In this document: in pieces, positions 1 through 41,478 of the stretch | How the letters are laid out: every line of letters begins with the position of its first letter | Position numbering within the stretch: position 1 is the first letter of the stretch | Source: a virus | Taxonomy: Duplodnaviria; Heunggongvirae; Uroviricota; Caudoviricetes | Length of the DNA: 48,315 nt | Virus record (IMG/VR): IMGVR_UViG_2565956711_000009 | Coordinates: 1-48,315 of that record | Strand: one strand, 5' to 3' | The notes under the pieces: generated by a model | The model's database searches: none | What the model was told of the DNA's origin: nothing | The model's input: the letters and a program-made list of their open reading frames with translations, nothing else | Made by a program: the position numbers and the translations under genes

Positions 1-390
1 TCACATCACCGGGCAATCATCAAACTCTGCATTCCTGGCGTCATTGATGATGTAAGTAAGCACCCCAAATACAGCGGGTGCAGAACTGTAACCGCCATCA
101 TCTACTGGCAGCGCCTCCTTTCTCCCGTTCTCCAGATTAACGAGGTGGGGTTGAGGATGTGTCCGATATCGCTTGATCCTAAATTCTCCGTCTATCGCGC
201 AGATCAGCAGCGAGCCATCACAGGCTGAAAGTGAGGCATCAACAACAAGCAGCGCCCCCTGAATTATCCCTTCCCTGAAATGTGAACGCGATGCACGCAT
301 GAAATAAGTCGCTGCGGGCTGGCTGATTAACTGCTGATCGAGGGAGATTCGTGTTTCAACGTAATCCGTAGCCGGCGAAGGAAAGCCCAT
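1..390 (-). CDS. UmuD'-like S24-family protein (LexA/UmuD C-terminal domain only)
   Basis: 129-aa ORF MGFPSPATDYVE...AIDGEFRIKRY; recalled UmuD motifs GFPSPAADYVE and GEFTVKKL; starts at the residue equivalent to the UmuD cleavage site; stop at 1-3; ATGA overlap with upstream ORF. Confidence 0.75.
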   Translation of the reverse strand: MGFPSPATDYVETRISLDQQLISQPAATYFMRASRSHFREGIIQGALLVVDASLSACDGSLLICAIDGEFRIKRYRTHPQPHLVNLENGRKEALPVDDGGYSSAPAVFGVLTYIINDARNAEFDDCPVM

Positions 391-629
391 TAGAAAACCC
401 TCCCCATGTTACGCAGGATCCAGTATCGGTTCTCGCTTCCGTTTGTCGTCTTATCAGCGAAGTCAGGCTGGTATCGCTCTATCCATGCATTGGCGTCATA
501 CTGGCTGAAATGCCAGTTTCTATCGCGTAATTCAGCAATAAATTTATTTGTATTAAGACAAAGATAGCCCTTCGGATTCTGTTGTATGGCCGCCAAAAAA
601 GCCGCATGGATATCATATTGACGAGGCAT
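390..629 (-). CDS. Hypothetical small protein translationally coupled to the UmuD'-like gene
   Basis: ORF 390..647; likely start at MPRQYDIH (ATG 629) preceded by GAGGG; stop overlaps downstream ATG; no family recognised. Confidence 0.5.
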   Translation of the reverse strand: MPRQYDIHAAFLAAIQQNPKGYLCLNTNKFIAELRDRNWHFSQYDANAWIERYQPDFADKTTNGSENRYWILRNMGRVF

Positions 630-655
630 AAGTGTCGCCCTCACCACACCATTGA

Positions 656-671
656 CTGTATGTATATACAG
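656..671. promoter_or_regulatory. LexA (SOS) box CTGT-N8-ACAG between divergent genes
   Basis: CTGTATGTATATACAG matches LexA consensus; overlaps + strand TTGACT(652-657)/TATTTT(675-680) promoter for the DinI-like gene; sits upstream of the minus-strand UmuD'-like operon. Confidence 0.7.
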
Positions 672-714
672 TGGTATTTTTGTTAGTACAGATCAAGTAA
701 GCGAGTATGATGTG

Positions 715-981
715 ATGTTAGTTGAACTGGTTTATGACAAGCGAAATGTTGAGGGACTCGAAGGGGCCAGAGAGATCATTCTGGCCGAGCTGACGAAGCG
801 GGTGCACCAGATTTTCCCTGATGCCGAAGTGAAGGTGAAGCCGATGCAGGCAAATGGCCTAAATAGCGATGCCAGCAAAAGCGATCGGGAAAAACTGAAC
901 CGCATGCTGGAGGAAATGTTTGAAGAGTCCGATATGTGGTTGGTTTCAGAGTTCCCGACTGTTCGCCAGGTTGGCCTATAA
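715..981 (+). CDS. dinI: DinI-family DNA-damage-inducible protein
   Basis: Translation ...FPDAEVKVKPMQANGL...EEMFEESDMWLVSE resembles recalled E. coli DinI (...FPDNEGHVSV...ETWESADDWFVSE); LexA box upstream. Confidence 0.8.
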   Translation: MLVELVYDKRNVEGLEGAREIILAELTKRVHQIFPDAEVKVKPMQANGLNSDASKSDREKLNRMLEEMFEESDMWLVSEFPTVRQVGL

Positions 982-1035: not shown

Positions 1036-1078
1036 AACCGCCGCTCATTCTTACACAAAATGGACGGCGGTTTTTTTT
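1036..1078 (+). terminator. Rho-independent terminator after DinI-like gene
   Basis: Imperfect stem AACCGCCGCTCATT...AATGGACGGCGGTT followed by T8. Confidence 0.6.
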
Positions 1079-2345
1079 AAGACCCCTGTTCCTGCTTTAA
1101 AGCCTCTTCCGTTTGTTTCTGTTTCTTTTTCTGATTCCAGATGCTACTCGCTGGCATTTCTACACGAACGCTGACGAACTGATCGGCCGGGATGTCAACC
1201 GGATCGCCATCAGCCAATCCATCACGCTCATTCCTGGCAAATGCTGGAGCCGAAGGATGTTCGCGGTGATAGGTTTTTACCAGCACAGAGCCGTCTGCGT
1301 TAACCTCATAGTCCAGCCATATCAGCGGTTGCTTATTCCTGTCAGTGGGAATCTCAAAACCTCCGTCGATACCGCCCCAGGCAGCGTCAGAATTGAGCGC
1401 CTGACATCCCTCAATGTAGTATTGCCCCACATCCAGACGTGTGACTCTCACCCCTTCTGATTCGTCGTTAGTTTCAACGCGGCCATCACTAAAAATTTTT
1501 ACCACAGGTGAGGCTCTTTTGATGAAACCATTGCTATCAACAAATGTATTTTTGTCATGATACATTGTCATCAATACAATATTTCCGGTCGGCTGACTGG
1601 AACTATAAGAAGCTTTTGCAACATAAACTGTGTTTGAATTCCCATAACCAATTCCTATTTCACCCCATTCAGAGTTTGTAGGACCAGGAAGGACCTGAAT
1701 AACACAACTGTCAGGAAATAAGTTGCCAGATTGATATGGCTCGTAAATACAAGACCAGGTCTTTTGCTCAGGGTTTGCAGAATCCCTACGCCCAACCTGG
1801 ACTAATTGAACATCGCCGGGATTTAAACCCGTATTTTTTAATGCTGCACCTCCTAAACCGAGGTTTGTGCGAGCGCCTGATGCGGTTGTCGAACCGGTAC
1901 CGCCCTGGTTAACAGGTACGGCCCCGCCGCTCTTGGTTGCCATATTGTCAGACAGATATTTCCATGACGGACCGCTGAAGGTAGTGCCGTCTGGCAGCTT
2001 CACTGTGATATTTCCGGCGGCGCTGTAAACCTGCTGCCAGTTCTGTTTATCGTAATTCAGTCCACGCAGCGCTTCAGCACTTTGCGCCACCAGCGCGGCA
2101 GTTACCATGTTCAGTGCAACACGAGGAACCGCTGACCAGGCAGCACCGGCCTGAGTAGGGCCGGTAAAGTTGCTGACCAGCGTAAGTTGCGCATTACTCT
2201 CAACCGATTTAACTGGCAGCGTATAATCAACACCGCCCACAGTGGAGACAATAAAGTCACCTGCGGCGAGTTCAGTTGCGAATGAGGTTCCGGAACCGCC
2301 AACAATAGCGGACCCGTTTGTCAGGGTGATGGTGCCTGCCGACAT
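1077..2345 (-). CDS. Side tail fibre protein
   Basis: 422-aa ORF; N-terminus MSAGTITLTNGSAIVGGSGTSF typical of lambdoid tail fibre N-domains; AGGAG RBS; position distal to J. Confidence 0.75.
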   Translation of the reverse strand: MSAGTITLTNGSAIVGGSGTSFATELAAGDFIVSTVGGVDYTLPVKSVESNAQLTLVSNFTGPTQAGAAWSAVPRVALNMVTAALVAQSAEALRGLNYDKQNWQQVYSAAGNITVKLPDGTTFSGPSWKYLSDNMATKSGGAVPVNQGGTGSTTASGARTNLGLGGAALKNTGLNPGDVQLVQVGRRDSANPEQKTWSCIYEPYQSGNLFPDSCVIQVLPGPTNSEWGEIGIGYGNSNTVYVAKASYSSSQPTGNIVLMTMYHDKNTFVDSNGFIKRASPVVKIFSDGRVETNDESEGVRVTRLDVGQYYIEGCQALNSDAAWGGIDGGFEIPTDRNKQPLIWLDYEVNADGSVLVKTYHREHPSAPAFARNERDGLADGDPVDIPADQFVSVRVEMPASSIWNQKKKQKQTEEALKQEQGS

Positions 2346-33394: not shown

Positions 33395-33732
33395 GCTCTC
33401 ACCCCGTATACGCTTAAAATTCTTCTCATCGCCGCGCTGTTGCGGCACTCCTGGCAGATCACGTTTGCCTCTGTACGCTGCACCAGCTTCGAATTTCCCT
33501 TCGGCATAGCCGGGATTGTTTCTGGTGCGTATTTCATGCCGTAATCGGTCAGCCGATAAAGCCGCTGTCCGTGCTTGCCTTCGAACTCGATCAAGCCGTC
33601 TGCCAGCAGCGTGCTCACCGTTCCGGATATCTTTTTGGTGGTCATGCCGATCATGCTGGCAATACGAGCACTGTTCAGGCCCGGGTTGTTACGCAGGGCT
33701 GCAAGAATCTGCCCGCGGATTGTTATGGTCAT
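33391..33732 (-). CDS. Winged-helix DNA-binding protein
   Basis: 113 aa; N-terminal wHTH-like segment ILAALRNNPGLNSARIASMIGMTTKKISGTVSTLLADGLI. Confidence 0.5.
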   Translation of the reverse strand: MTITIRGQILAALRNNPGLNSARIASMIGMTTKKISGTVSTLLADGLIEFEGKHGQRLYRLTDYGMKYAPETIPAMPKGNSKLVQRTEANVICQECRNSAAMRRILSVYGVRA

Positions 33733-34583
33733 GCTGCCCCCTTAGAACGGTAAGAATCCCACGTGAATGACAGAGTGCACCCGCCGCCATCGCTCATGCG
33801 GTCAAGAACGCGCTCGCCGATGAATGCTGCCAGCTCTTCCCTTGTCTGGTTGCTGATCAGGATGGTCGGCTTCATCCGCTCGTACCGGGTGTTGATGATT
33901 TCGAACATGATCAGCTTCTCGGCCTCGCTGCCGAACTGGACGCCAACCTCGTCGATGATCAAAAGGTCCGGAGTGGTGAAGTGCGCAATCACGTCGTTCT
34001 CGCTGCGCGTCGCAGTTTTCGACCACGTTGATTTGAACTCACGGGCAATCTTCAGCGCGGTGGTAAAAATTACCGGGCTCTGGTGTTTCTCGATGACATC
34101 ACGGGCGATCGCCAGGGCAAGGTGGTTTTTACCGGTTCCCGGCTTGCCGCACATCACCAGACCACCTCCCTGCTTCAGCCGCTCGGGCCACTTCGCGGCA
34201 TACGCCTGACAAACCCGCAGCGCACGTTCTGACTCCTTGCCAACCGGCTGATAGTTTTCCAGCGTGCACGTCACAAAGCGCTCAGGGATTTCGAGCTGAC
34301 GCAGCAGGCGATCGATGTTCTGCTGGCGAGTGCGGTCTTCCCAACGCTTTTTCTCGTCATACAGGAAGCTCAGCTCATCGCGAAGGCAGCCCGGACAACG
34401 AGTCGGCGGCGACGGCAGCTTGATTAGGCTGCTGGTAAGCACGCGTTTACGCTGTTCGTATTCGCCGTGTTTCTCGCAAAGCACCGTTTCGAAGACGGTC
34501 TCGCAGTTAGGGAGTTGCTCTGGCGGCCTGCCGAGAACTTCCAGCATTTTTTCGATAGCGTCGATTTTTTCGAGCAGCTCCAT
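33729..34583 (-). CDS. Replication protein, DnaC/IstB-like AAA+ helicase loader
   Basis: Walker A GKPGTGKNHLA and Walker B LLIIDEVG; start taken at MELLEKID. Confidence 0.8.
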   Translation of the reverse strand: MELLEKIDAIEKMLEVLGRPPEQLPNCETVFETVLCEKHGEYEQRKRVLTSSLIKLPSPPTRCPGCLRDELSFLYDEKKRWEDRTRQQNIDRLLRQLEIPERFVTCTLENYQPVGKESERALRVCQAYAAKWPERLKQGGGLVMCGKPGTGKNHLALAIARDVIEKHQSPVIFTTALKIAREFKSTWSKTATRSENDVIAHFTTPDLLIIDEVGVQFGSEAEKLIMFEIINTRYERMKPTILISNQTREELAAFIGERVLDRMSDGGGCTLSFTWDSYRSKGAA

Positions 34584-34585
34584 AC

Positions 34586-35440
34586 TCAGTCCCTCGCCCA
34601 TGACGGGATTTCAGTCTGGCCATAGTCCTTGCCAGCGAAGTTCTCGGATACGCGAGTCTGATTGCGGGCTGGCTGCTTGATGCCTTTCGGTTCAAACAAT
34701 CCCTGCCAGCCGTTCGCAATGCTCTGGTTGATGATTTCTTCAGGCTGATATCCGCTGCACTTGCAACGCTCGAGCAGGTTGATGGCCTGGGTAACCGTCT
34801 GCTGAGACTTGATCGGTTTCTTCAGGTCGCGACGATAATCGACCCATGACTTCCAGACTGAAACTGACAGCCATTCAGGAAGGTCAACACCGGCCGGATC
34901 GAACGAAGCCGGTTTGGGGGATTTAGGGGGTTTATTAATATTGTCTTTATTGTCTTTTGTATGTTTGTCTTTTGTGTTTACCTGATTTGGGTAAGTGTCG
35001 TTACCTGATTCGGGTAAACATTTCTTACCTGATACGGGTAAATTTACCTCTTTCAGGTAAACTTTATTTTCGTTACCTGATTTGGGTAATTTCACCCATT
35101 CGCTGACCGCTTTGTTAATCCCCACAGTTCGCCCGATTTGGGTAAATACCCCGCGCTTAACTAACGCGCTTTTAGCAGCAGAGCATTTGTGTGGGAGGAT
35201 GCCGGTCAGGGCAGATAACTGATCATTGCTTACCCAGTCTGCCTTTTTGTTGAAACCGTATGTTTTGCGCATTACTGCCATGAAGACCAGCAGCTGATGC
35301 TGAGACAATCCAGCCAGCATGACAGCCTCCAGAAGTTCATTGGCGATGCGCGTATAGCCATCATCAAGATCTGCCACGCGCGGCTCCTTAGGTGCCACGT
35401 CAGGCACAGGGAAATTGATTACTTCGGCAGTGTTTGCCAT
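34586..35440 (-). CDS. Replication initiator (lambda O-like) containing ori
   Basis: 284 aa; iterons and AT-rich tract embedded mid-gene. Confidence 0.75.
   Translation of the reverse strand: MANTAEVINFPVPDVAPKEPRVADLDDGYTRIANELLEAVMLAGLSQHQLLVFMAVMRKTYGFNKKADWVSNDQLSALTGILPHKCSAAKSALVKRGVFTQIGRTVGINKAVSEWVKLPKSGNENKVYLKEVNLPVSGKKCLPESGNDTYPNQVNTKDKHTKDNKDNINKPPKSPKPASFDPAGVDLPEWLSVSVWKSWVDYRRDLKKPIKSQQTVTQAINLLERCKCSGYQPEEIINQSIANGWQGLFEPKGIKQPARNQTRVSENFAGKDYGQTEIPSWARD
34930..35089. repeat. Origin of replication: five 17-bp iterons plus AT-rich tract
   Basis: TTACCTGATNNGGGTAA at 34978, 35001, 35025, 35044, 35073; AT-rich 34930-34977 with TTGTCTTT x3. Confidence 0.8.
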
Positions 35441-35525: not shown

Positions 35526-36068
35526 TCACATAACCCCCAGCATCGATGTCACCATCGTCATCAGCGGCCCTACCTGCTCCGGCATGAGGCGAAACAATGA
35601 CGCTATGCCCTCGCTTACCTCCTTCATTTTCTGGTGCTCAGGCGCGTTCAGGAGAACGGCTTGCTTTGCTTCTGAACATTCCTTCATGGCAGATGCGATC
35701 AGCGACATGGTGTCGTTCTGCGGCGCCAGGCGTGTACGAAACTCAACAGGAAGAACAGCCATGATTGCCGGGGTCAGTTCTCTAACGTTCTCGCGGTACT
35801 GATCGGAGTCGAAGCGGTTATCCAGAAAGCGAAAAAGTTTCTGGCGCGCCCTGCTGATGTCTTCTGGGAAGCTGATGGCGGTACCGCCCTGCTCCCGGTA
35901 TTCGTTGATGATCAGCGCTGACACTACGTCCTGATTGTCCAGGGACGACGACCATGCACGGACCGCATCGCGGATTTTGTCGTGACCTGGCTCCGCCTTA
36001 GGTTGAGCGCGGTTTATCATCGCTCCCGGGTGTATTCCGGTATTGTGTTGATACGCAAGTGAATGCAT
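35526..36068 (-). CDS. CII-position regulatory protein, possibly YdaT-family
   Basis: 180 aa downstream of cro-like gene; family from weak recollection. Confidence 0.4.
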   Translation of the reverse strand: MHSLAYQHNTGIHPGAMINRAQPKAEPGHDKIRDAVRAWSSSLDNQDVVSALIINEYREQGGTAISFPEDISRARQKLFRFLDNRFDSDQYRENVRELTPAIMAVLPVEFRTRLAPQNDTMSLIASAMKECSEAKQAVLLNAPEHQKMKEVSEGIASLFRLMPEQVGPLMTMVTSMLGVM

Positions 36069-36428: not shown

Positions 36429-37205
36429 ATGGTTAAAAAAGACGATTTAAAAGAAGAATTCTCGAAGAGACTTCGCGCTGCATTGCTTGATGCTGGCGTG
36501 GGTGGGCGTGGGCAGGCTGGCAGGATCAGGGAAGCTATGAAGTCCCAAGGGATTGCTGTATCTGAGCCCGGGATCTGGAAGTGGCTTAACGCATCAGCAA
36601 TACCAGACCAAACCAATATCCTTGCACTTAGCCGCTGGCTTGGGGTTCGCCCTGAGTGGCTGGAATACGGAAGGAATGATCCTGAACCTGAACTGCACAG
36701 GGTATCATCCATCCCGCCTGAATCTGAGTGGGGAACTGTCGACGCTTGGGACAAAAATACCCCCCTACCTGACGATGAGGTGGAAGTACCGTTTCTGAAG
36801 GATATCGAGTTTGCGTGTGGTGATGGACGAGTACACGATGAGGATCACAATGGTTTTAAGCTCAGGTTCTCAAAGGCAACCCTCCGCCGCGTTGGAGCTA
36901 ACACAGATGGGTCTGGCATCCTGTGTTTCCCTGCTACTGGCGACAGCATGGAACCTGTGATACCGGATGGTACGACTGTAGCCGTCGATACGAACAACAA
37001 ACGCATAGTTGATGGGAAACTGTATGCCATTGGTCAGACAGATGGCGGGAATGGTCAACTCAAGCGCATTAAACAGCTGTATCGTAAGCCAGGTGGGAAG
37101 CTGATCATCCGCAGCTACAACAATGAGGCCTACCCTGATGAAGAAGCTGACATTGATGATGTTGAGATAATCGGCCGCCTCTTCTGGTACTCGGTACTGC
37201 TGTAG
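36429..37205 (+). CDS. cI: CI-type repressor (HTH + S24 peptidase domain)
   Basis: 258 aa; N-terminal HTH; C-terminal GDSMEP and LKRI catalytic motifs; no RBS, likely leaderless. Confidence 0.85.
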   Translation: MVKKDDLKEEFSKRLRAALLDAGVGGRGQAGRIREAMKSQGIAVSEPGIWKWLNASAIPDQTNILALSRWLGVRPEWLEYGRNDPEPELHRVSSIPPESEWGTVDAWDKNTPLPDDEVEVPFLKDIEFACGDGRVHDEDHNGFKLRFSKATLRRVGANTDGSGILCFPATGDSMEPVIPDGTTVAVDTNNKRIVDGKLYAIGQTDGGNGQLKRIKQLYRKPGGKLIIRSYNNEAYPDEEADIDDVEIIGRLFWYSVLL

Positions 37206-37321: not shown

Positions 37322-37906
37322 ATGAAAATGATTACAGGAATCGAAGCGCTAGCTTTACAGGCTACAGATATCCTTGCAGCCTCCAGGGCGGCGCAGCAAA
37401 TAGTTTCCCCACTTGCCAGAGCTAACTCGAGACTGGCACAGTCTGCCATGCCTGAAAATCCTGATGAAGTTAAGCACGCCTTAGATCGTGCCTCTATTGC
37501 GATTGCAGGTGTAGAGCGCAAATTAGTTGAGTGCAATGAAATAGTTAATTCATTAAACACACTTTCTGATGAAGATCTTCATTTCACCAATGAGTTTCTC
37601 ATTGAATTAAAGGTTAGGGCTGAAATGCTGACTGGGCACATAGAGAATTTACGCGATGTGTTTTCTCTAGTTGAAACGTCGAGCGCTTGGAAGCCTTACA
37701 TGCCATTGGTTTATGAAAAAAAACGCAAAGCAATTCGCTCTGTTTCTGATCTGCGAAATGCATATCTAAACATTGCTCTCCTGGCAGAGCAATTTGTCTC
37801 ACCCGTGCCGACCGTAAGCAGTAGTGTTGAGGGTAACTCAGAGGAATTTTCATCTGCACTCTCCGCATCACGCCAGCTGCTAAAAATCGGCTCGGAGTGG
37901 AGATAA
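37322..37906 (+). CDS. Unknown helical protein, first gene of cI-linked accessory operon
   Basis: 194 aa, no TM segments or recognised motifs; same strand as cI; stop overlaps next start (TAATG). Confidence 0.6.
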   Translation: MKMITGIEALALQATDILAASRAAQQIVSPLARANSRLAQSAMPENPDEVKHALDRASIAIAGVERKLVECNEIVNSLNTLSDEDLHFTNEFLIELKVRAEMLTGHIENLRDVFSLVETSSAWKPYMPLVYEKKRKAIRSVSDLRNAYLNIALLAEQFVSPVPTVSSSVEGNSEEFSSALSASRQLLKIGSEWR

Positions 37907-38316
37907 TGGCAAGAGTTAGTATCCATTCATCATTAAATAATTCGGCGTTTATACAAGGGCTTGCCAGAGAACTATCTCTTTATCTTAACGGCATCTCTTT
38001 ATCCGGACGCCTTGGAAGAAATGGCGGCTTTGAACGTAATAATTCAGCGCAAACATCCGGCATCCTCAAAATCCACTTCAAAGCACCAGGAGAAGGTTTT
38101 TGGACTGATGCTATGCGACAATCAACCAGAACGAGCAATAACTACATAGTATATGCGCGTCACTGGGATAAGGCTGATGCATTTCAAATCATCGCTGTGA
38201 TTGCACCAGACGCTCACGAAACGGCTGACGCACTCCTGCCCAGGATTATTGATATTACGGAACAAGATTTTCACTCGCTAAGTGAGAGTCAAATAGATCG
38301 CCTAGAACATTATTAA
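37906..38316 (+). CDS. Unknown protein with YoeB/RelE-like toxin-fold motifs
   Basis: 136 aa; segment KAPGEGFWTD...NNYIVYARHWDKADAFQIIAVIAPDAHE resembles recalled YoeB GFWSRRITEEHRLVYAV...LLIAACRYHY; unverified. Confidence 0.55.
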   Translation: MARVSIHSSLNNSAFIQGLARELSLYLNGISLSGRLGRNGGFERNNSAQTSGILKIHFKAPGEGFWTDAMRQSTRTSNNYIVYARHWDKADAFQIIAVIAPDAHETADALLPRIIDITEQDFHSLSESQIDRLEHY

Positions 38317-39498: not shown

Positions 39499-40167
39499 AT
39501 GATTCGTCTTAACAACGAAATTAAAAATCAGCTATGCCATAACCTGCTTCTCGCATCCCCATTGTTTGAGAAAGCGAAAGCTGCGGTTAATGAGAGGGCG
39601 AAAATTGTTGAAGAAATTCGACAGGCATTGCTCAAGCAGGAAAACACTAGCGATGAGCAAATAACTAAGGCTCGGGAAGATTTCAAAGATAACTCCTTCA
39701 TCAAGATGCAGGTCGGCGCTAAAACTGCAACTTTAAAGGTCATTATTAATGGTGAGTATCACGAATTAGCCAGGAACGGTTTGGATCATCGCTATCGCCA
39801 CCGTGGAAAACATATTGGTAAGCACGATCTTGAAAGCGACCTGTTCTTCGGAGCTTCCTTCGCGCCTGTAATTGATTCGGGTTTCGTTCCTGAAAGTTAC
39901 AGCACGCTGAAGAAAGTTGGAAAATTACACGACCGACTCACTGAATCGACGGTAACCATCAACGTTCTTTACGATGAAGTTGATGCCTTCCAATTGCAGG
40001 TTAAAGGTGCTCTAACCAAAGTCTCAACTGTTAAAAAACTGGCTGAGATGTGGCCTGAGGCAGTGCCATATTTGCCTGAGGTGGAACGCCGTGAAGCGAC
40101 CAGCACCGCACTTGCCATTCCCGTTGAAACGCTAAACGCCCTTTGCGGCATACCAAAGAATGAATGA
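39499..40167 (+). CDS. Hypothetical protein, unknown function
   Basis: 222 aa; GAGGG RBS; followed by terminator. Confidence 0.55.
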   Translation: MIRLNNEIKNQLCHNLLLASPLFEKAKAAVNERAKIVEEIRQALLKQENTSDEQITKAREDFKDNSFIKMQVGAKTATLKVIINGEYHELARNGLDHRYRHRGKHIGKHDLESDLFFGASFAPVIDSGFVPESYSTLKKVGKLHDRLTESTVTINVLYDEVDAFQLQVKGALTKVSTVKKLAEMWPEAVPYLPEVERREATSTALAIPVETLNALCGIPKNE

Positions 40168-40820: not shown

Positions 40821-40975
40821 AAGTCACCCACAACGGCAAGCAGTACACCGCCAAAAAGCTCAACGATAACGAGTGGCAGCTGACGTCGGTATCTGCACCG
40901 CGTGAAAAGTTGGTACTTAACCGCTGGCAGATGCATATGGCTGGCCTCCTGGTACAGGTTGAGGTGAAGGTATGA
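40817..40975 (+). CDS. Small hypothetical protein
   Basis: 52-aa ORF below the track cutoff (MKVTHNGKQYTAKKLNDNEWQL...); GGGAGG RBS; ATGA overlaps at both ends. Confidence 0.4.
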   Translation: MKVTHNGKQYTAKKLNDNEWQLTSVSAPREKLVLNRWQMHMAGLLVQVEVKV

Positions 40976-41478
40976 TGCGAAAGCACAAGTTGCCAAGTGC
41001 TGAGGAGATAGATTCCTTGCTGGATTACAACCCTGAAACCGGAGTATTTACGTGGAAAGTGACGAAATCAGGATGGGTTGTAAAGGGGCGGCCTGCTGGT
41101 TCAAAAAACAATAATGGCTATCTCCGAGTTGGTATTGGAAGAAGGCACTACTTCCTTTCTCGAATCGCATTTTTCTTATGCACCGGGGAATCACCTGAAG
41201 AAGTAGACCATATCAATGGTGACAGAACAGATAACAGGGCGTGCAACTTAAGAGCCGCAAGCCGTCATGAAAACTGCCTCAATAAGTCGGTAAGAAGCGA
41301 CAGCAGGACTGGTGTAAAGGGCGTCTCATGGCGACCGGATGTTAAAAAATGGTCTGCACGATCAACTGATTCATCGGGGAAGAGAGTGTTTTTAGGTTAC
41401 TACCGCACCATCAGAGATGCGGTGGCTGTCCTTAATGATTTTCGGAGAGAACAGCATGGTGAGTTTGCAAAAAATTAG
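40972..41478 (+). CDS. HNH homing-type endonuclease with AP2-like domain
   Basis: YLRVGIGRRHYFLSRIAFFL...VDHINGDRTDNRACNLR...HEN motifs. Confidence 0.75.
   Translation: MMRKHKLPSAEEIDSLLDYNPETGVFTWKVTKSGWVVKGRPAGSKNNNGYLRVGIGRRHYFLSRIAFFLCTGESPEEVDHINGDRTDNRACNLRAASRHENCLNKSVRSDSRTGVKGVSWRPDVKKWSARSTDSSGKRVFLGYYRTIRDAVAVLNDFRREQHGEFAKN

What the first reader, a model, noticed from the sequence alone, without database searches (positions are those of the whole stretch)
1..981. LexA-box-controlled SOS cassette: DinI-like gene divergent from a small ORF coupled to a naturally truncated UmuD'-like protein
A consensus LexA box (CTGTATGTATATACAG, 656-671) lies between a DinI-family gene and a minus-strand operon of a 79-aa unknown protein ATGA-coupled to an S24-family protein. 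That protein starts at MGFPSPATDYVE, the residue equivalent to the one after the RecA-facilitated cleavage site in UmuD, so it would be made already in the activated UmuD' form, as reported for phage P1 HumD. My alignment places the putative catalytic Ser (RSHF) and Lys (EFRIKRY). The upstream partner is uncharacterised, and the pairing is not the canonical umuD-umuC arrangement.
Basis: partly seen in the sequence, partly recalled or inferred. Interest (0 to 1): 0.55.

Follow-up and report, generated by a model that had tools for sequence, protein, structure and literature searches.

The report
SOS-controlled prophage HumD and DinI genes
At one end of an E. coli prophage sits a DNA-damage-inducible cluster encoding a ready-activated copy of the mutagenesis protein UmuD (a known "HumD" protein), a DinI-like RecA modulator and a small winged-helix partner; the first two are ordinary and already annotated, and only the partner's function is unknown.

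Summary
A strong LexA box (656-671) lies between a DinI-family gene (715-981, +) and a minus-strand operon: a 79-aa ORF (390-629), then a 129-aa S24 protein (1-390) that begins at the residue matching UmuD Gly25.

The interpretation also holds, but it is not new. The S24 protein is a full-length member of NCBI's curated HumD family (219 bits, cut-off 120) and is 71% identical to P1 HumD. The window is 100% identical to E. coli MEI4O1-23, where RefSeq already names these genes HumD family and DinI family. Phage HK140 carries the same three genes. phiKO2 has the dinI / LexA-box / umuD' arrangement annotated.

Corrections:
- The gene overlap is TAATG, not ATGA.
- The Ser assignment depends on the alignment, and that position is Thr in other HumD proteins.

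New here:
- One LexA box covers two overlapping divergent promoters.
- orf79 is an orphan protein restricted to Enterobacterales, with a confidently predicted winged-helix fold.
- orf79 is almost always LexA-boxed and stop/start-overlapped with an "MGFPSPAxDY" pre-truncated S24 protein. That partner is either HumD or a shorter form lacking the catalytic loop.

The role of orf79 remains unknown. Overall this is an ordinary SOS "moron" cassette of low to moderate interest.

The parts
1..390 (-). humD: a 129-aa HumD-family protein (pre-truncated UmuD'). ATG at 390-388, stop at 3-1.
   Evidence: NCBIfam NF051876 219 bits, positions 1-129 of 129. Pfam Peptidase_S24. 71% identical to P1 HumD. Aligns to UmuD' from Gly25. 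In-frame TAA at 411-409 rules out an extension. RefSeq names it HumD family.
399..403 (-). GGAGG Shine-Dalgarno sequence for humD, 8 nt before its ATG, embedded in the last codons of orf79 (…MGRVF).
   Evidence: Read directly from the sequence. It explains the conserved orf79 C-terminus (…NMGRVx / …NPNGGx) seen.
390..629 (-). orf79: a 79-aa orphan protein with a predicted winged-helix fold. Its TAA stop (392-390) overlaps the humD ATG by one base (TAATG).
638..642 (-). GAGGG Shine-Dalgarno sequence for orf79, 8 nt before the ATG at 629-627.
   Evidence: A similar purine-rich element is present in the homologous loci.
656..671 (.). LexA operator (SOS box) CTGTATGTATATACAG; the 20-mer spans 654-673.
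   Evidence: 17 of 20 matches to the consensus, unique in the window, 0 of 100 shuffles. An equivalent box lies 29-42 nt upstream of the orf79 ATG in 24 of the 30 loci with upstream sequence (plus near-matches in three of the rest), in three distant loci and in a fourth lacking the S24 partner. P1, N15 and phiKO2 humD also have one.
668..696 (-). Predicted sigma-70 promoter of orf79-humD: -35 TTGATC (696-691), 17-nt spacer, -10 CACTGT (673-668). The -10 element and the expected start site lie inside the LexA box.
   Evidence: Coordinates. The TTGATC-N17-TACTGT/CACTGT layout is conserved in most of the aligned upstream regions, including loci that lack dinI. The consensus scanner did not report it because the -10 is weak.
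652..680 (+). Predicted sigma-70 promoter of dinI: -35 TTGACT (652-657), 17-nt spacer containing the LexA box, -10 TATTTT (675-680) preceded by TG.
   Evidence: The only promoter-like site found in 1-1200. Coordinates checked.
715..981 (+). DinI-family gene (88 aa; MsgA/DinI-like RecA-filament binder).
   Evidence: Pfam PF06183 80 bits. PHROG 189. Below the E. coli DinI equivalog cut-off, 40.7 versus 111 bits. RefSeq names it 'DinI family protein'.
1036..1080 (+). Probable rho-independent terminator after dinI (GC stem followed by T8), between dinI and the convergent tail-fibre gene.
   Evidence: RNA fold of 975-1085 gives -35.2 kcal/mol, z=-3.97, with a hairpin followed by U8. The simple scanner missed it because the apical part of the hairpin is long and imperfectly paired.

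Best explanation
This is an SOS-inducible accessory ('moron') cassette at the tail-fibre/attachment-site end of a lambdoid (HK97/HK140-like) E. coli prophage.

One strong LexA operator is overlapped by two divergent sigma-70 promoters. In an undamaged lysogen, host LexA should shut off both. After DNA damage, RecA-stimulated LexA cleavage would release two transcripts:
(a) the DinI-family gene, whose product binds RecA filaments;
(b) orf79-humD.

HumD is made already in the UmuD' form. It can therefore pair with host UmuC to form a Pol V-type translesion polymerase without the slow RecA-dependent UmuD cleavage step. It also escapes any DinI block on that step. This follows P1 HumD, for which functional complementation of UmuD' is annotated and published.

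orf79 is a small winged-helix protein made from the same mRNA and translationally coupled to HumD. It is most likely an accessory or regulatory partner of the pre-truncated S24 protein, but its activity is unknown.

Shown here: the sequence features, family memberships, promoter/operator geometry and their conservation. Inferred: LexA binding, induction, the UmuC partnership and any orf79-HumD contact.
For: - HumD membership: NF051876 219 bits over 1-129 of 129, the same as P1 HumD; 71% identity to P1 HumD.
- The P1 record annotates HumD as 'functionally complements E. coli UmuD'' and marks a LexA site shared with lxr. The published title of McLenigan 1999 is cited in PMC11541004.
- Gly2 matches UmuD Gly25, and no upstream start is possible.
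- The UmuD residues that contact RecA in the cryo-EM structure (F26, P29, Y52, D91, E93, F94; PMC9926225) are identical in the window protein (alignment).
- LexA box: 17 of 20 matches, unique, 0 of 100 shuffles. It sits over the -10 of P(orf79) and inside the spacer of P(dinI).
- The box and the TTGATC -35 are conserved across loci whose orf79 is only 37-90% identical.
- phiKO2 has dinI, an annotated lexA site and an umuD-like gene in the same divergent layout. PMC7556043 reports LexA control of the phiKO2 din-like gene.
- HK140 carries the identical three-gene cassette beside attP.
- RefSeq annotates this exact sequence.
Against: - Nothing was tested experimentally for this locus.
- The -10 of the orf79 promoter is weak (CACTGT).
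- The S24 catalytic motif GxSM is degenerate, and the nucleophile position is Ser or Thr across HumD proteins. This is harmless for a UmuD' role, but it shows the family has drifted.
- The commoner partner of orf79 is a shorter S24 derivative that lacks the catalytic loop and scores below every family cut-off. The conserved orf79 module may therefore not be about Pol V at all.
- No umuC is present in the prophage.
Confidence: 0.75

Rival explanations
1. RecA*/SOS modulator rather than mutagenesis factor. HumD (and especially the short S24 derivatives), together with orf79 and DinI, occupy the RecA-filament groove or heterodimerise with host UmuD, LexA or CI C-terminal domains. This would tune SOS and prophage induction, and translesion synthesis would be incidental.
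For: - It is co-regulated from one operator with a DinI-family RecA-filament binder.
- All UmuD residues that contact RecA are retained.
- LexA, UmuD, CI and DinI all bind the same RecA groove (PMC9926225).
- orf79 pairs even more often with a short S24 form that has lost the catalytic loop and Lys but keeps the GFPSPAxDY arm.
- The phage has no umuC.
Against: The close orthologue P1 HumD is annotated and published as functionally complementing UmuD'. There is no direct evidence for competition with LexA or CI.
Confidence: 0.15
2. Two-piece LexA-like regulator. orf79 (winged-helix) and the S24 dimerisation domain, which starts exactly at the cleavage-site Gly, associate non-covalently to form a DNA-binding repressor or activator. 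This would be equivalent to a LexA/UmuDAb-type protein split at its cleavage site.
For: - orf79 has a winged-helix fold.
- It is strictly adjacent to an S24 protein beginning at the cleavage-site Gly, with a stop/start overlap, across 37-90% sequence divergence.
- Acinetobacter offers a precedent for a UmuD homologue acting as a repressor with a small co-repressor, DdrR (PMC11332147).
Against: - There is no profile similarity between orf79 and LexA (hhalign probability 0.1%).
- The recognition helix is not basic.
- HumD orthologues in P1, N15 and phiKO2 function or exist without orf79.
- The LexA-like 'GRV' at the orf79 C-terminus is explained by the embedded GGAGG ribosome-binding site.
- The only fused ORFs found look like indel artefacts.
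Confidence: 0.06
3. orf79 is a LexA-controlled antirepressor (like 186 Tum, N15 AntC or Gifsy GfoA/GftA) that inactivates a prophage repressor after DNA damage. Its linkage to humD would be incidental.
For: Small LexA-controlled antirepressor genes lie next to dinI homologues in Gifsy prophages, and Tum is an antirepressor-DinI fusion (PMC3121763). orf79 is small, LexA-boxed and next to dinI.
Against: - This prophage's CI-like repressor carries an S24 self-cleavage domain, so it needs no antirepressor.
- No phage record outside the orf79 family itself matched orf79 by tblastn, so no Gifsy, 186 or N15 antirepressor.
- orf79 is tied to the S24 gene rather than to dinI; most loci lack dinI.
Confidence: 0.04

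Closest known systems
Bacteriophage P1 HumD (lxr / LexA site / humD)
   Same: 129 aa, 71% identical end to end, same start at the UmuD Gly25 equivalent and same C-terminal EFDDCPV tail. A LexA box lies 30-40 nt upstream and serves a divergent gene pair. Same NCBIfam equivalog family.
   Different: In P1 the divergent partner is lxr, not dinI, and no orf79 lies between the LexA box and humD. P1 is a plasmid prophage, whereas this is an integrated lambdoid prophage.
Klebsiella phage phiKO2 gp22 (DinI) / lexA site / gp23 (UmuD-like); N15 gp26
   Same: dinI and a HumD-family gene diverge from one annotated LexA site next to the tail-fibre genes. The HumD proteins are 64-67% identical to the window protein.
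   Different: They have no orf79, so humD follows the operator directly. They are linear-plasmid prophages, with sopAB downstream instead of an attachment site.
Enterobacteria phage HK140 gp26-gp28 (also E. hormaechei B17-3 locus L009)
   Same: Identical three-gene architecture (DinI / LexA box / orf79 / HumD) between the tail fibre and attP. 81% DNA identity over 969 bp, with the same TAATG overlap.
   Different: It differs only in sequence: HumD is 70% identical and has Thr instead of Ser at the nucleophile position. HK140 annotates orf79 as hypothetical.
E. coli UmuD' (processed UmuD, PDB 1UMU/1AY9; the Pol V subunit)
   Same: S24 fold, 41% identity (alignment to UmuD'). Begins at the same Gly. 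The N-terminal GFPSPAxDYVE arm, the RecA-contact residues and Lys97 are conserved.
   Different: It is made directly rather than by RecA-stimulated self-cleavage. The GxSM active-site motif is degenerate. It has an extra 12-residue C-terminal tail. It is not in an operon with umuC.
Short 'MGFPSPAxDY' S24 derivatives of mEp390, HK225, Klebsiella RothD, Erwinia Midgardsormr38 and Cronobacter phiES15
   Same: Same position downstream of an orf79 homologue, same stop/start overlap, same LexA box, same N-terminal arm and a similar C-terminal …DDCPV(I/M) end in many members.
   Different: They are 105-108 aa, the 12-residue catalytic loop is deleted and Lys is not conserved. They are only 22-32% identical and fall below the HumD, UmuD and S24 cut-offs. 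The window carries the long HumD form instead.
LexA-controlled dinI-antirepressor operons of Gifsy prophages / 186 Tum
   Same: A prophage SOS locus pairing a DinI homologue with a small LexA-controlled protein (PMC3121763).
   Different: No sequence relationship to orf79 was detected. Here the small protein is transcribed divergently from dinI and is coupled to an S24 protein. The resident repressor is of the cleavable type.

Membership tests
HumD family (NCBIfam NF051876, equivalog) | Full-length profile match above the curated cut-off | tested here: met
   219.2 bits versus a cut-off of 120, positions 1-129 of 129. P1 HumD itself scores 221.5.
HumD family (NCBIfam NF051876, equivalog) | Translation starts at the residue after the UmuD Cys24-Gly25 cleavage site, with no pro-peptide | tested here: met
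   Gly2 aligns with UmuD' residue 1 and UmuD residue 25. An in-frame stop lies seven codons upstream of the ATG, with no alternative start.
HumD family (NCBIfam NF051876, equivalog) | LexA box in the promoter region | tested here: met
   Box at 656-671 over the operon's -10. P1, N15 and phiKO2 have boxes 32-62 nt upstream of humD.
HumD family (NCBIfam NF051876, equivalog) | Substitutes for UmuD' with UmuC in SOS mutagenesis | not testable with these tools
   Known only for P1 HumD, from the record note and the title of McLenigan 1999 cited.
Peptidase S24 (PF00717) as an active self-cleaving protease | Ser-Lys catalytic dyad within the G-x-S-M motif | tested here: inconclusive
   The Pfam match passes its cut-off (35 versus 23.3 bits) and Lys73 aligns with K97. 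MAFFT aligns Ser36 with S60, whereas HMMER aligns His37 there. The Gly and Met of the motif are lost, and HK140, N15 and phiKO2 have Thr. Catalysis is not needed for a pre-cut protein.
DinI family (PF06183) | Domain match above the gathering score | tested here: met
   80.4 bits versus 24.2.
E. coli DinI equivalog (NF007893) | Score above the curated equivalog cut-off | tested here: not met
   40.7 bits versus 111. It is a phage MsgA/DinI-like paralogue, not the chromosomal DinI.
LexA operator (gammaproteobacterial SOS box) | CTGT-N8-ACAG palindrome with an AT-rich spacer, close to the 20-mer consensus and overlapping a promoter | tested here: met
   17 of 20 matches, 0 of 100 shuffles. It overlaps both predicted promoters and is conserved in position across divergent loci.
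LexA operator (gammaproteobacterial SOS box) | Bound by LexA, with damage-inducible transcription | not testable with these tools
   No expression or binding data are available here.
Winged-helix (wHTH) fold, for orf79 | H1-b1-H2-H3-b2-b3 topology and structural matches to winged-helix proteins | tested here: met
LexA N-terminal DNA-binding domain (split-LexA idea) | Detectable sequence or profile similarity of orf79 to the LexA N-terminal domain | tested here: not met
   hhalign probability 0.1%. No LexA_DNA_bind hit in any of 27 members at E<=10.
LexA-controlled antirepressors (Tum/AntC/GfoA type) | Resident repressor lacks a self-cleavage domain, and there is homology to known antirepressors | tested here: not met
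   The CI-like protein at 36429-37205 has a Peptidase_S24 domain. No phage record outside the orf79 family matched orf79 by tblastn.

The most novel reading that the evidence does not exclude
orf79 is a dedicated winged-helix partner of pre-truncated UmuD'-like proteins. Together they would form a previously unrecognised two-component SOS effector. Possibilities are a non-covalent LexA/UmuDAb-like DNA-binding regulator, or an adaptor that directs the S24 dimer to UmuC, RecA* or a repressor. Pol V activation would then be only one output of the module, and the catalytically dead short S24 forms would be its main form.
Probability: 0.15. Interest if true: 0.6.

Novelty: new member of a known kind. 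Interest (0 to 1): 0.25.

Why it matters
As it stands this is a textbook-type prophage SOS moron. It adds another instance of phage-borne, ready-activated UmuD' under LexA control, which could raise damage-induced mutagenesis, and so the adaptability, of its lysogen. The one item worth a specialist's attention is the conserved, LexA-boxed, translationally coupled pairing of an orphan winged-helix protein with two classes of pre-truncated S24 proteins in Enterobacterales prophages. If the two proteins act together, that would reveal a new accessory layer of SOS and Pol V control carried by phages.

Tried and rejected
1. N-terminal extension of HumD. Rejected: an in-frame TAA lies seven codons upstream of the ATG with no start codon between.
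2. Programmed -1 frameshift fusing orf79 to HumD at GTTTTCTAA. Rejected: the T-run is not conserved (many loci read gttcacTGAtg), and the few fused ORFs in databases are noisy singletons.
3. Split-LexA origin of orf79. No profile similarity to LexA. The 'GRV' resemblance is explained by the embedded GGAGG.
4. Antirepressor role. The resident CI is of the cleavable type.
5. Defence-system membership. No PADLOC hits.
6. Non-coding RNA in the window. No Rfam hits.
7. Deeper homology for orf79. The exhaustive phmmer search found only 96 clusters, all within the family. The profile search found 364 proteins; the 120 best listed carry no Pfam hit and are named hypothetical or 'DNA polymerase V'. BFVD gave only its own orthologue, and the PDB sequence search gave nothing.
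8. Co-folding orf79 with HumD as a linked chain.
9. The afdb50 fold library was unavailable.
11. The primary papers on P1 HumD and phiKO2 are not held in the library.

Full report
**What is there.** Positions 1-981 hold three real genes and one regulatory hub.
- On the minus strand, a 129-aa ORF (390 to 1) starts MGFPSPATDYVE.
- It is preceded by a 79-aa ORF (629 to 390).
- On the plus strand there is an 88-aa ORF (715-981).
- Pfam assigns the first to Peptidase_S24 and the third to DinI, and finds nothing for the 79-aa protein.
- The 16-mer CTGTATGTATATACAG is at 656-671.
- Its 20-mer (654-673) matches the E. coli LexA consensus at 17 of 20 positions. It is the only such site in 48 kb and never appeared in 100 shuffles. 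The bare CTGT-N8-ACAG pattern would not be significant on its own.

- The two minus-strand genes overlap as TAATG (stop TAA 392-390, start ATG 390-388), not ATGA.
- The catalytic Lys assignment holds: K73 aligns with UmuD K97.
- The Ser assignment depends on where a one-residue gap is placed. MAFFT aligns the Ser of RSHF with UmuD S60, while HMMER aligns the following His.
- In either case the S24 G-x-S-M motif is gone. HK140, N15, phiKO2 and an Enterobacter orthologue have Thr at that position.
- This fits relaxed selection on a protease site that a pre-cut protein no longer needs.

**Identity of the S24 protein.**
- It matches NCBI's curated equivalog model 'HumD family translesion DNA polymerase' (NF051876) from residue 1 to 129 with 219 bits (cut-off 120). 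P1 HumD scores 221.5.
- It is 71% identical to P1 HumD over its whole length, and 64-70% identical to N15 gp26, phiKO2 gp23 and HK140 gp28.
- Against solved structures, Gly2 aligns with the first residue of crystallised UmuD' and with Gly25 of full-length UmuD.
- An in-frame TAA seven codons upstream of the ATG, with no start between, rules out a longer form.
- The UmuD residues shown by cryo-EM to contact the RecA filament (F26, P29, Y52, D91, E93, F94; PMC9926225) are all identical in the window protein.

**Source and prior annotation.**
- The window is 100% identical to the chromosome of E. coli MEI4O1-23. RefSeq already labels the three genes 'HumD family translesion DNA polymerase', 'hypothetical protein' and 'DinI family protein'.
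- The prophage lies next to yecD/aspS. The window begins at the humD stop codon only because it was cut at a gene boundary.
- Phage HK140 has the same three-gene cassette between its tail-fibre gene and attP, annotated UmuD-like / hypothetical / DinI.
- phiKO2 has dinI and an umuD-like gene diverging from an annotated lexA site. [quoted passage not shown]
- P1 annotates a LexA site shared by lxr and humD, and notes that HumD functionally complements UmuD'.
- All three HumD orthologues carry a CTGT-N8-ACAG box 32-62 nt upstream.

**Regulatory geometry (new detail).**
- The only sigma-70-like site the scanner found in 1-1200 is TTGACT(652-657)-17-TATTTT(675-680) on the plus strand. This is the dinI promoter, with the LexA box in its spacer.
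- On the minus strand, TTGATC(696-691)-17-CACTGT(673-668) places the -10 and the expected start of the orf79-humD transcript inside the box.
- This second promoter is weak in the window. However, its TTGATC -35, the 17-nt spacing and a TACTGT -10 fused to the LexA box are conserved upstream of orf79 homologues in most of the other loci examined. These include loci with no dinI and with orf79 only 37-39% identical.
- One LexA dimer should therefore shut both divergent promoters.
- Each minus-strand gene has its own ribosome-binding site: GAGGG for orf79 and GGAGG for humD. The humD site is encoded within the last codons of orf79, which explains the conserved …MGRVF / …NGG(I/F) C-termini.
- A GC-rich hairpin followed by T8 after dinI (1036-1080) looks like a terminator.

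**The 79-aa partner.**
- It belongs to PHROG 3893 (unknown function).
- It has no Pfam, NCBIfam, PADLOC or PDB sequence match.
- An exhaustive phmmer search of 1.84 billion representatives found only 96 clusters.
- A profile search found 364 proteins. The 120 best listed are hypothetical or misnamed 'DNA polymerase V'. Where an organism is named, nearly all family members come from Enterobacterales or their phages, apart from two metagenome bins labelled otherwise.
- AlphaFold with a 27-sequence alignment gives a confident model (pLDDT 88.7) with helix-strand-helix-helix-strand-strand topology.
- BFVD returns only its own orthologue.

**Genomic linkage (new).**
- I examined 31 loci: 25 species genomes, five phages and the window.
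- In all but two of the 29 loci with a called downstream ORF, the orf79 stop overlaps the ATG (T(A/G)ATG) of a protein that begins M(G/A)F(P/V/A)SPAxD(Y/F).
- That partner is either the long HumD form (window, HK140, L009, L017) or, more often, a 105-108-aa form.
- Three further homologues at 37-39% identity keep the partner and the LexA box; one lacks the partner.
- The short form has the 12-residue catalytic loop deleted and lacks the Lys. It falls below all family cut-offs but keeps the N-terminal arm and, in many members, a …DDCPV(I/M) tail.
- orf79 is far better conserved than its partner. mEp390 orf79 is 89% identical to the window's, but its partner is only 26% identical. DNA similarity between the window and mEp390 stops about 30 nt into the S24 gene. 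The modules therefore recombine at the conserved GFPSPAxDY codons.
- HumD orthologues exist without orf79 (P1, N15, phiKO2), whereas orf79 almost never occurs without an S24 partner.

**Mechanism.**
- Most likely (about 0.75): a LexA-repressed, damage-induced cassette. It supplies ready-made UmuD' for host UmuC, bypassing RecA-dependent processing, alongside a DinI-type RecA-filament binder. orf79 is a co-translated accessory factor of unknown activity.
- RecA*/SOS modulator rival (about 0.15). It is supported by the catalytically dead short partners and the retained RecA contacts.
- Two-piece LexA-like regulator (about 0.06). It is weakened by the absence of any similarity to LexA and by orf79-less HumD genes.
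- LexA-controlled antirepressor, by analogy with the Gifsy, 186 and N15 loci (PMC3121763) (about 0.04). It is weakened because the resident CI-like repressor has an S24 self-cleavage domain and because orf79 tracks the S24 gene rather than dinI.

**Verdict.** The HumD/DinI/LexA cassette is already known and annotated. The only open item is the function of the conserved winged-helix partner and of the short S24 derivatives it usually accompanies.

Noticed in passing
Loci L002, L006-L008, L010-L031, L038-L040 (downstream of orf79 homologues): A second, commoner class of pre-truncated S24 derivatives (105-108 aa). They start MGFPSPAxDY, the catalytic loop is deleted and the Lys is absent. They score below Pfam and NCBIfam cut-offs and are usually annotated 'UmuD-like' or hypothetical. 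Their function is unknown, and they cannot be proteases.
   Followed up: partly
window 37322-38316 (+): A YafO-family toxin gene (37897-38316) overlaps the end of a 194-aa ORF with no Pfam hit (37322-37906). This is a possible toxin-antitoxin pair just downstream of the CI-like repressor. There is no LexA box nearby, unlike the E. coli dinB-yafNOP operon.
   Followed up: no
window 36429-37205 (+) and 35526-36068 (-): A CI-like repressor with a Peptidase_S24 domain (a cleavable, lambda-type switch), and a YdaT-family gene on the opposite strand next to the replication genes (O-like at 34586-35440, a DnaC/IstB-like ATPase at 33729-34601).
   Followed up: partly
window 39499-40167 (+) and 40972-41478 (+): An Nmad5 (nucleotide-modification-associated domain 5) protein and an HNH endonuclease in the early/recombination region. 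These may be DNA-modification or anti-restriction functions.
   Followed up: no
L036 2403-2953 (E. coli MEI4O1-23, just outside the window start): The prophage lies beside yecD/aspS. A truncated ORF follows yecD and is the likely attachment site. A tiny YnaM/YnfT-family gene sits between that junction and humD, so the true prophage end is a few hundred bases beyond window position 1. In HK140 the annotated attP overlaps the 3' end of its humD homologue.
   Followed up: partly
one search hits H123-H129 (Stx-converting phages, record ends): Unannotated matches to HumD residues 73-128 lie at the extreme ends of several Stx phage records. They look like humD remnants next to attachment sites.
   Followed up: no
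Upstream of orf79 in L006, L008, L017, L022, L030, L032: In loci lacking dinI, a second TTGATAGG element lies about 20 bp upstream of the conserved TTGATC -35. This direct repeat of TTGAT could be a second promoter or a binding site, perhaps for the winged-helix protein.
   Followed up: no
P0132 and P0205: Database ORFs that fuse an orf79-like N-terminus to an MGF(P/S)SPA… S24 sequence through a frame change. They are noisy singletons and probably indel artefacts rather than natural fusions.
   Followed up: partly
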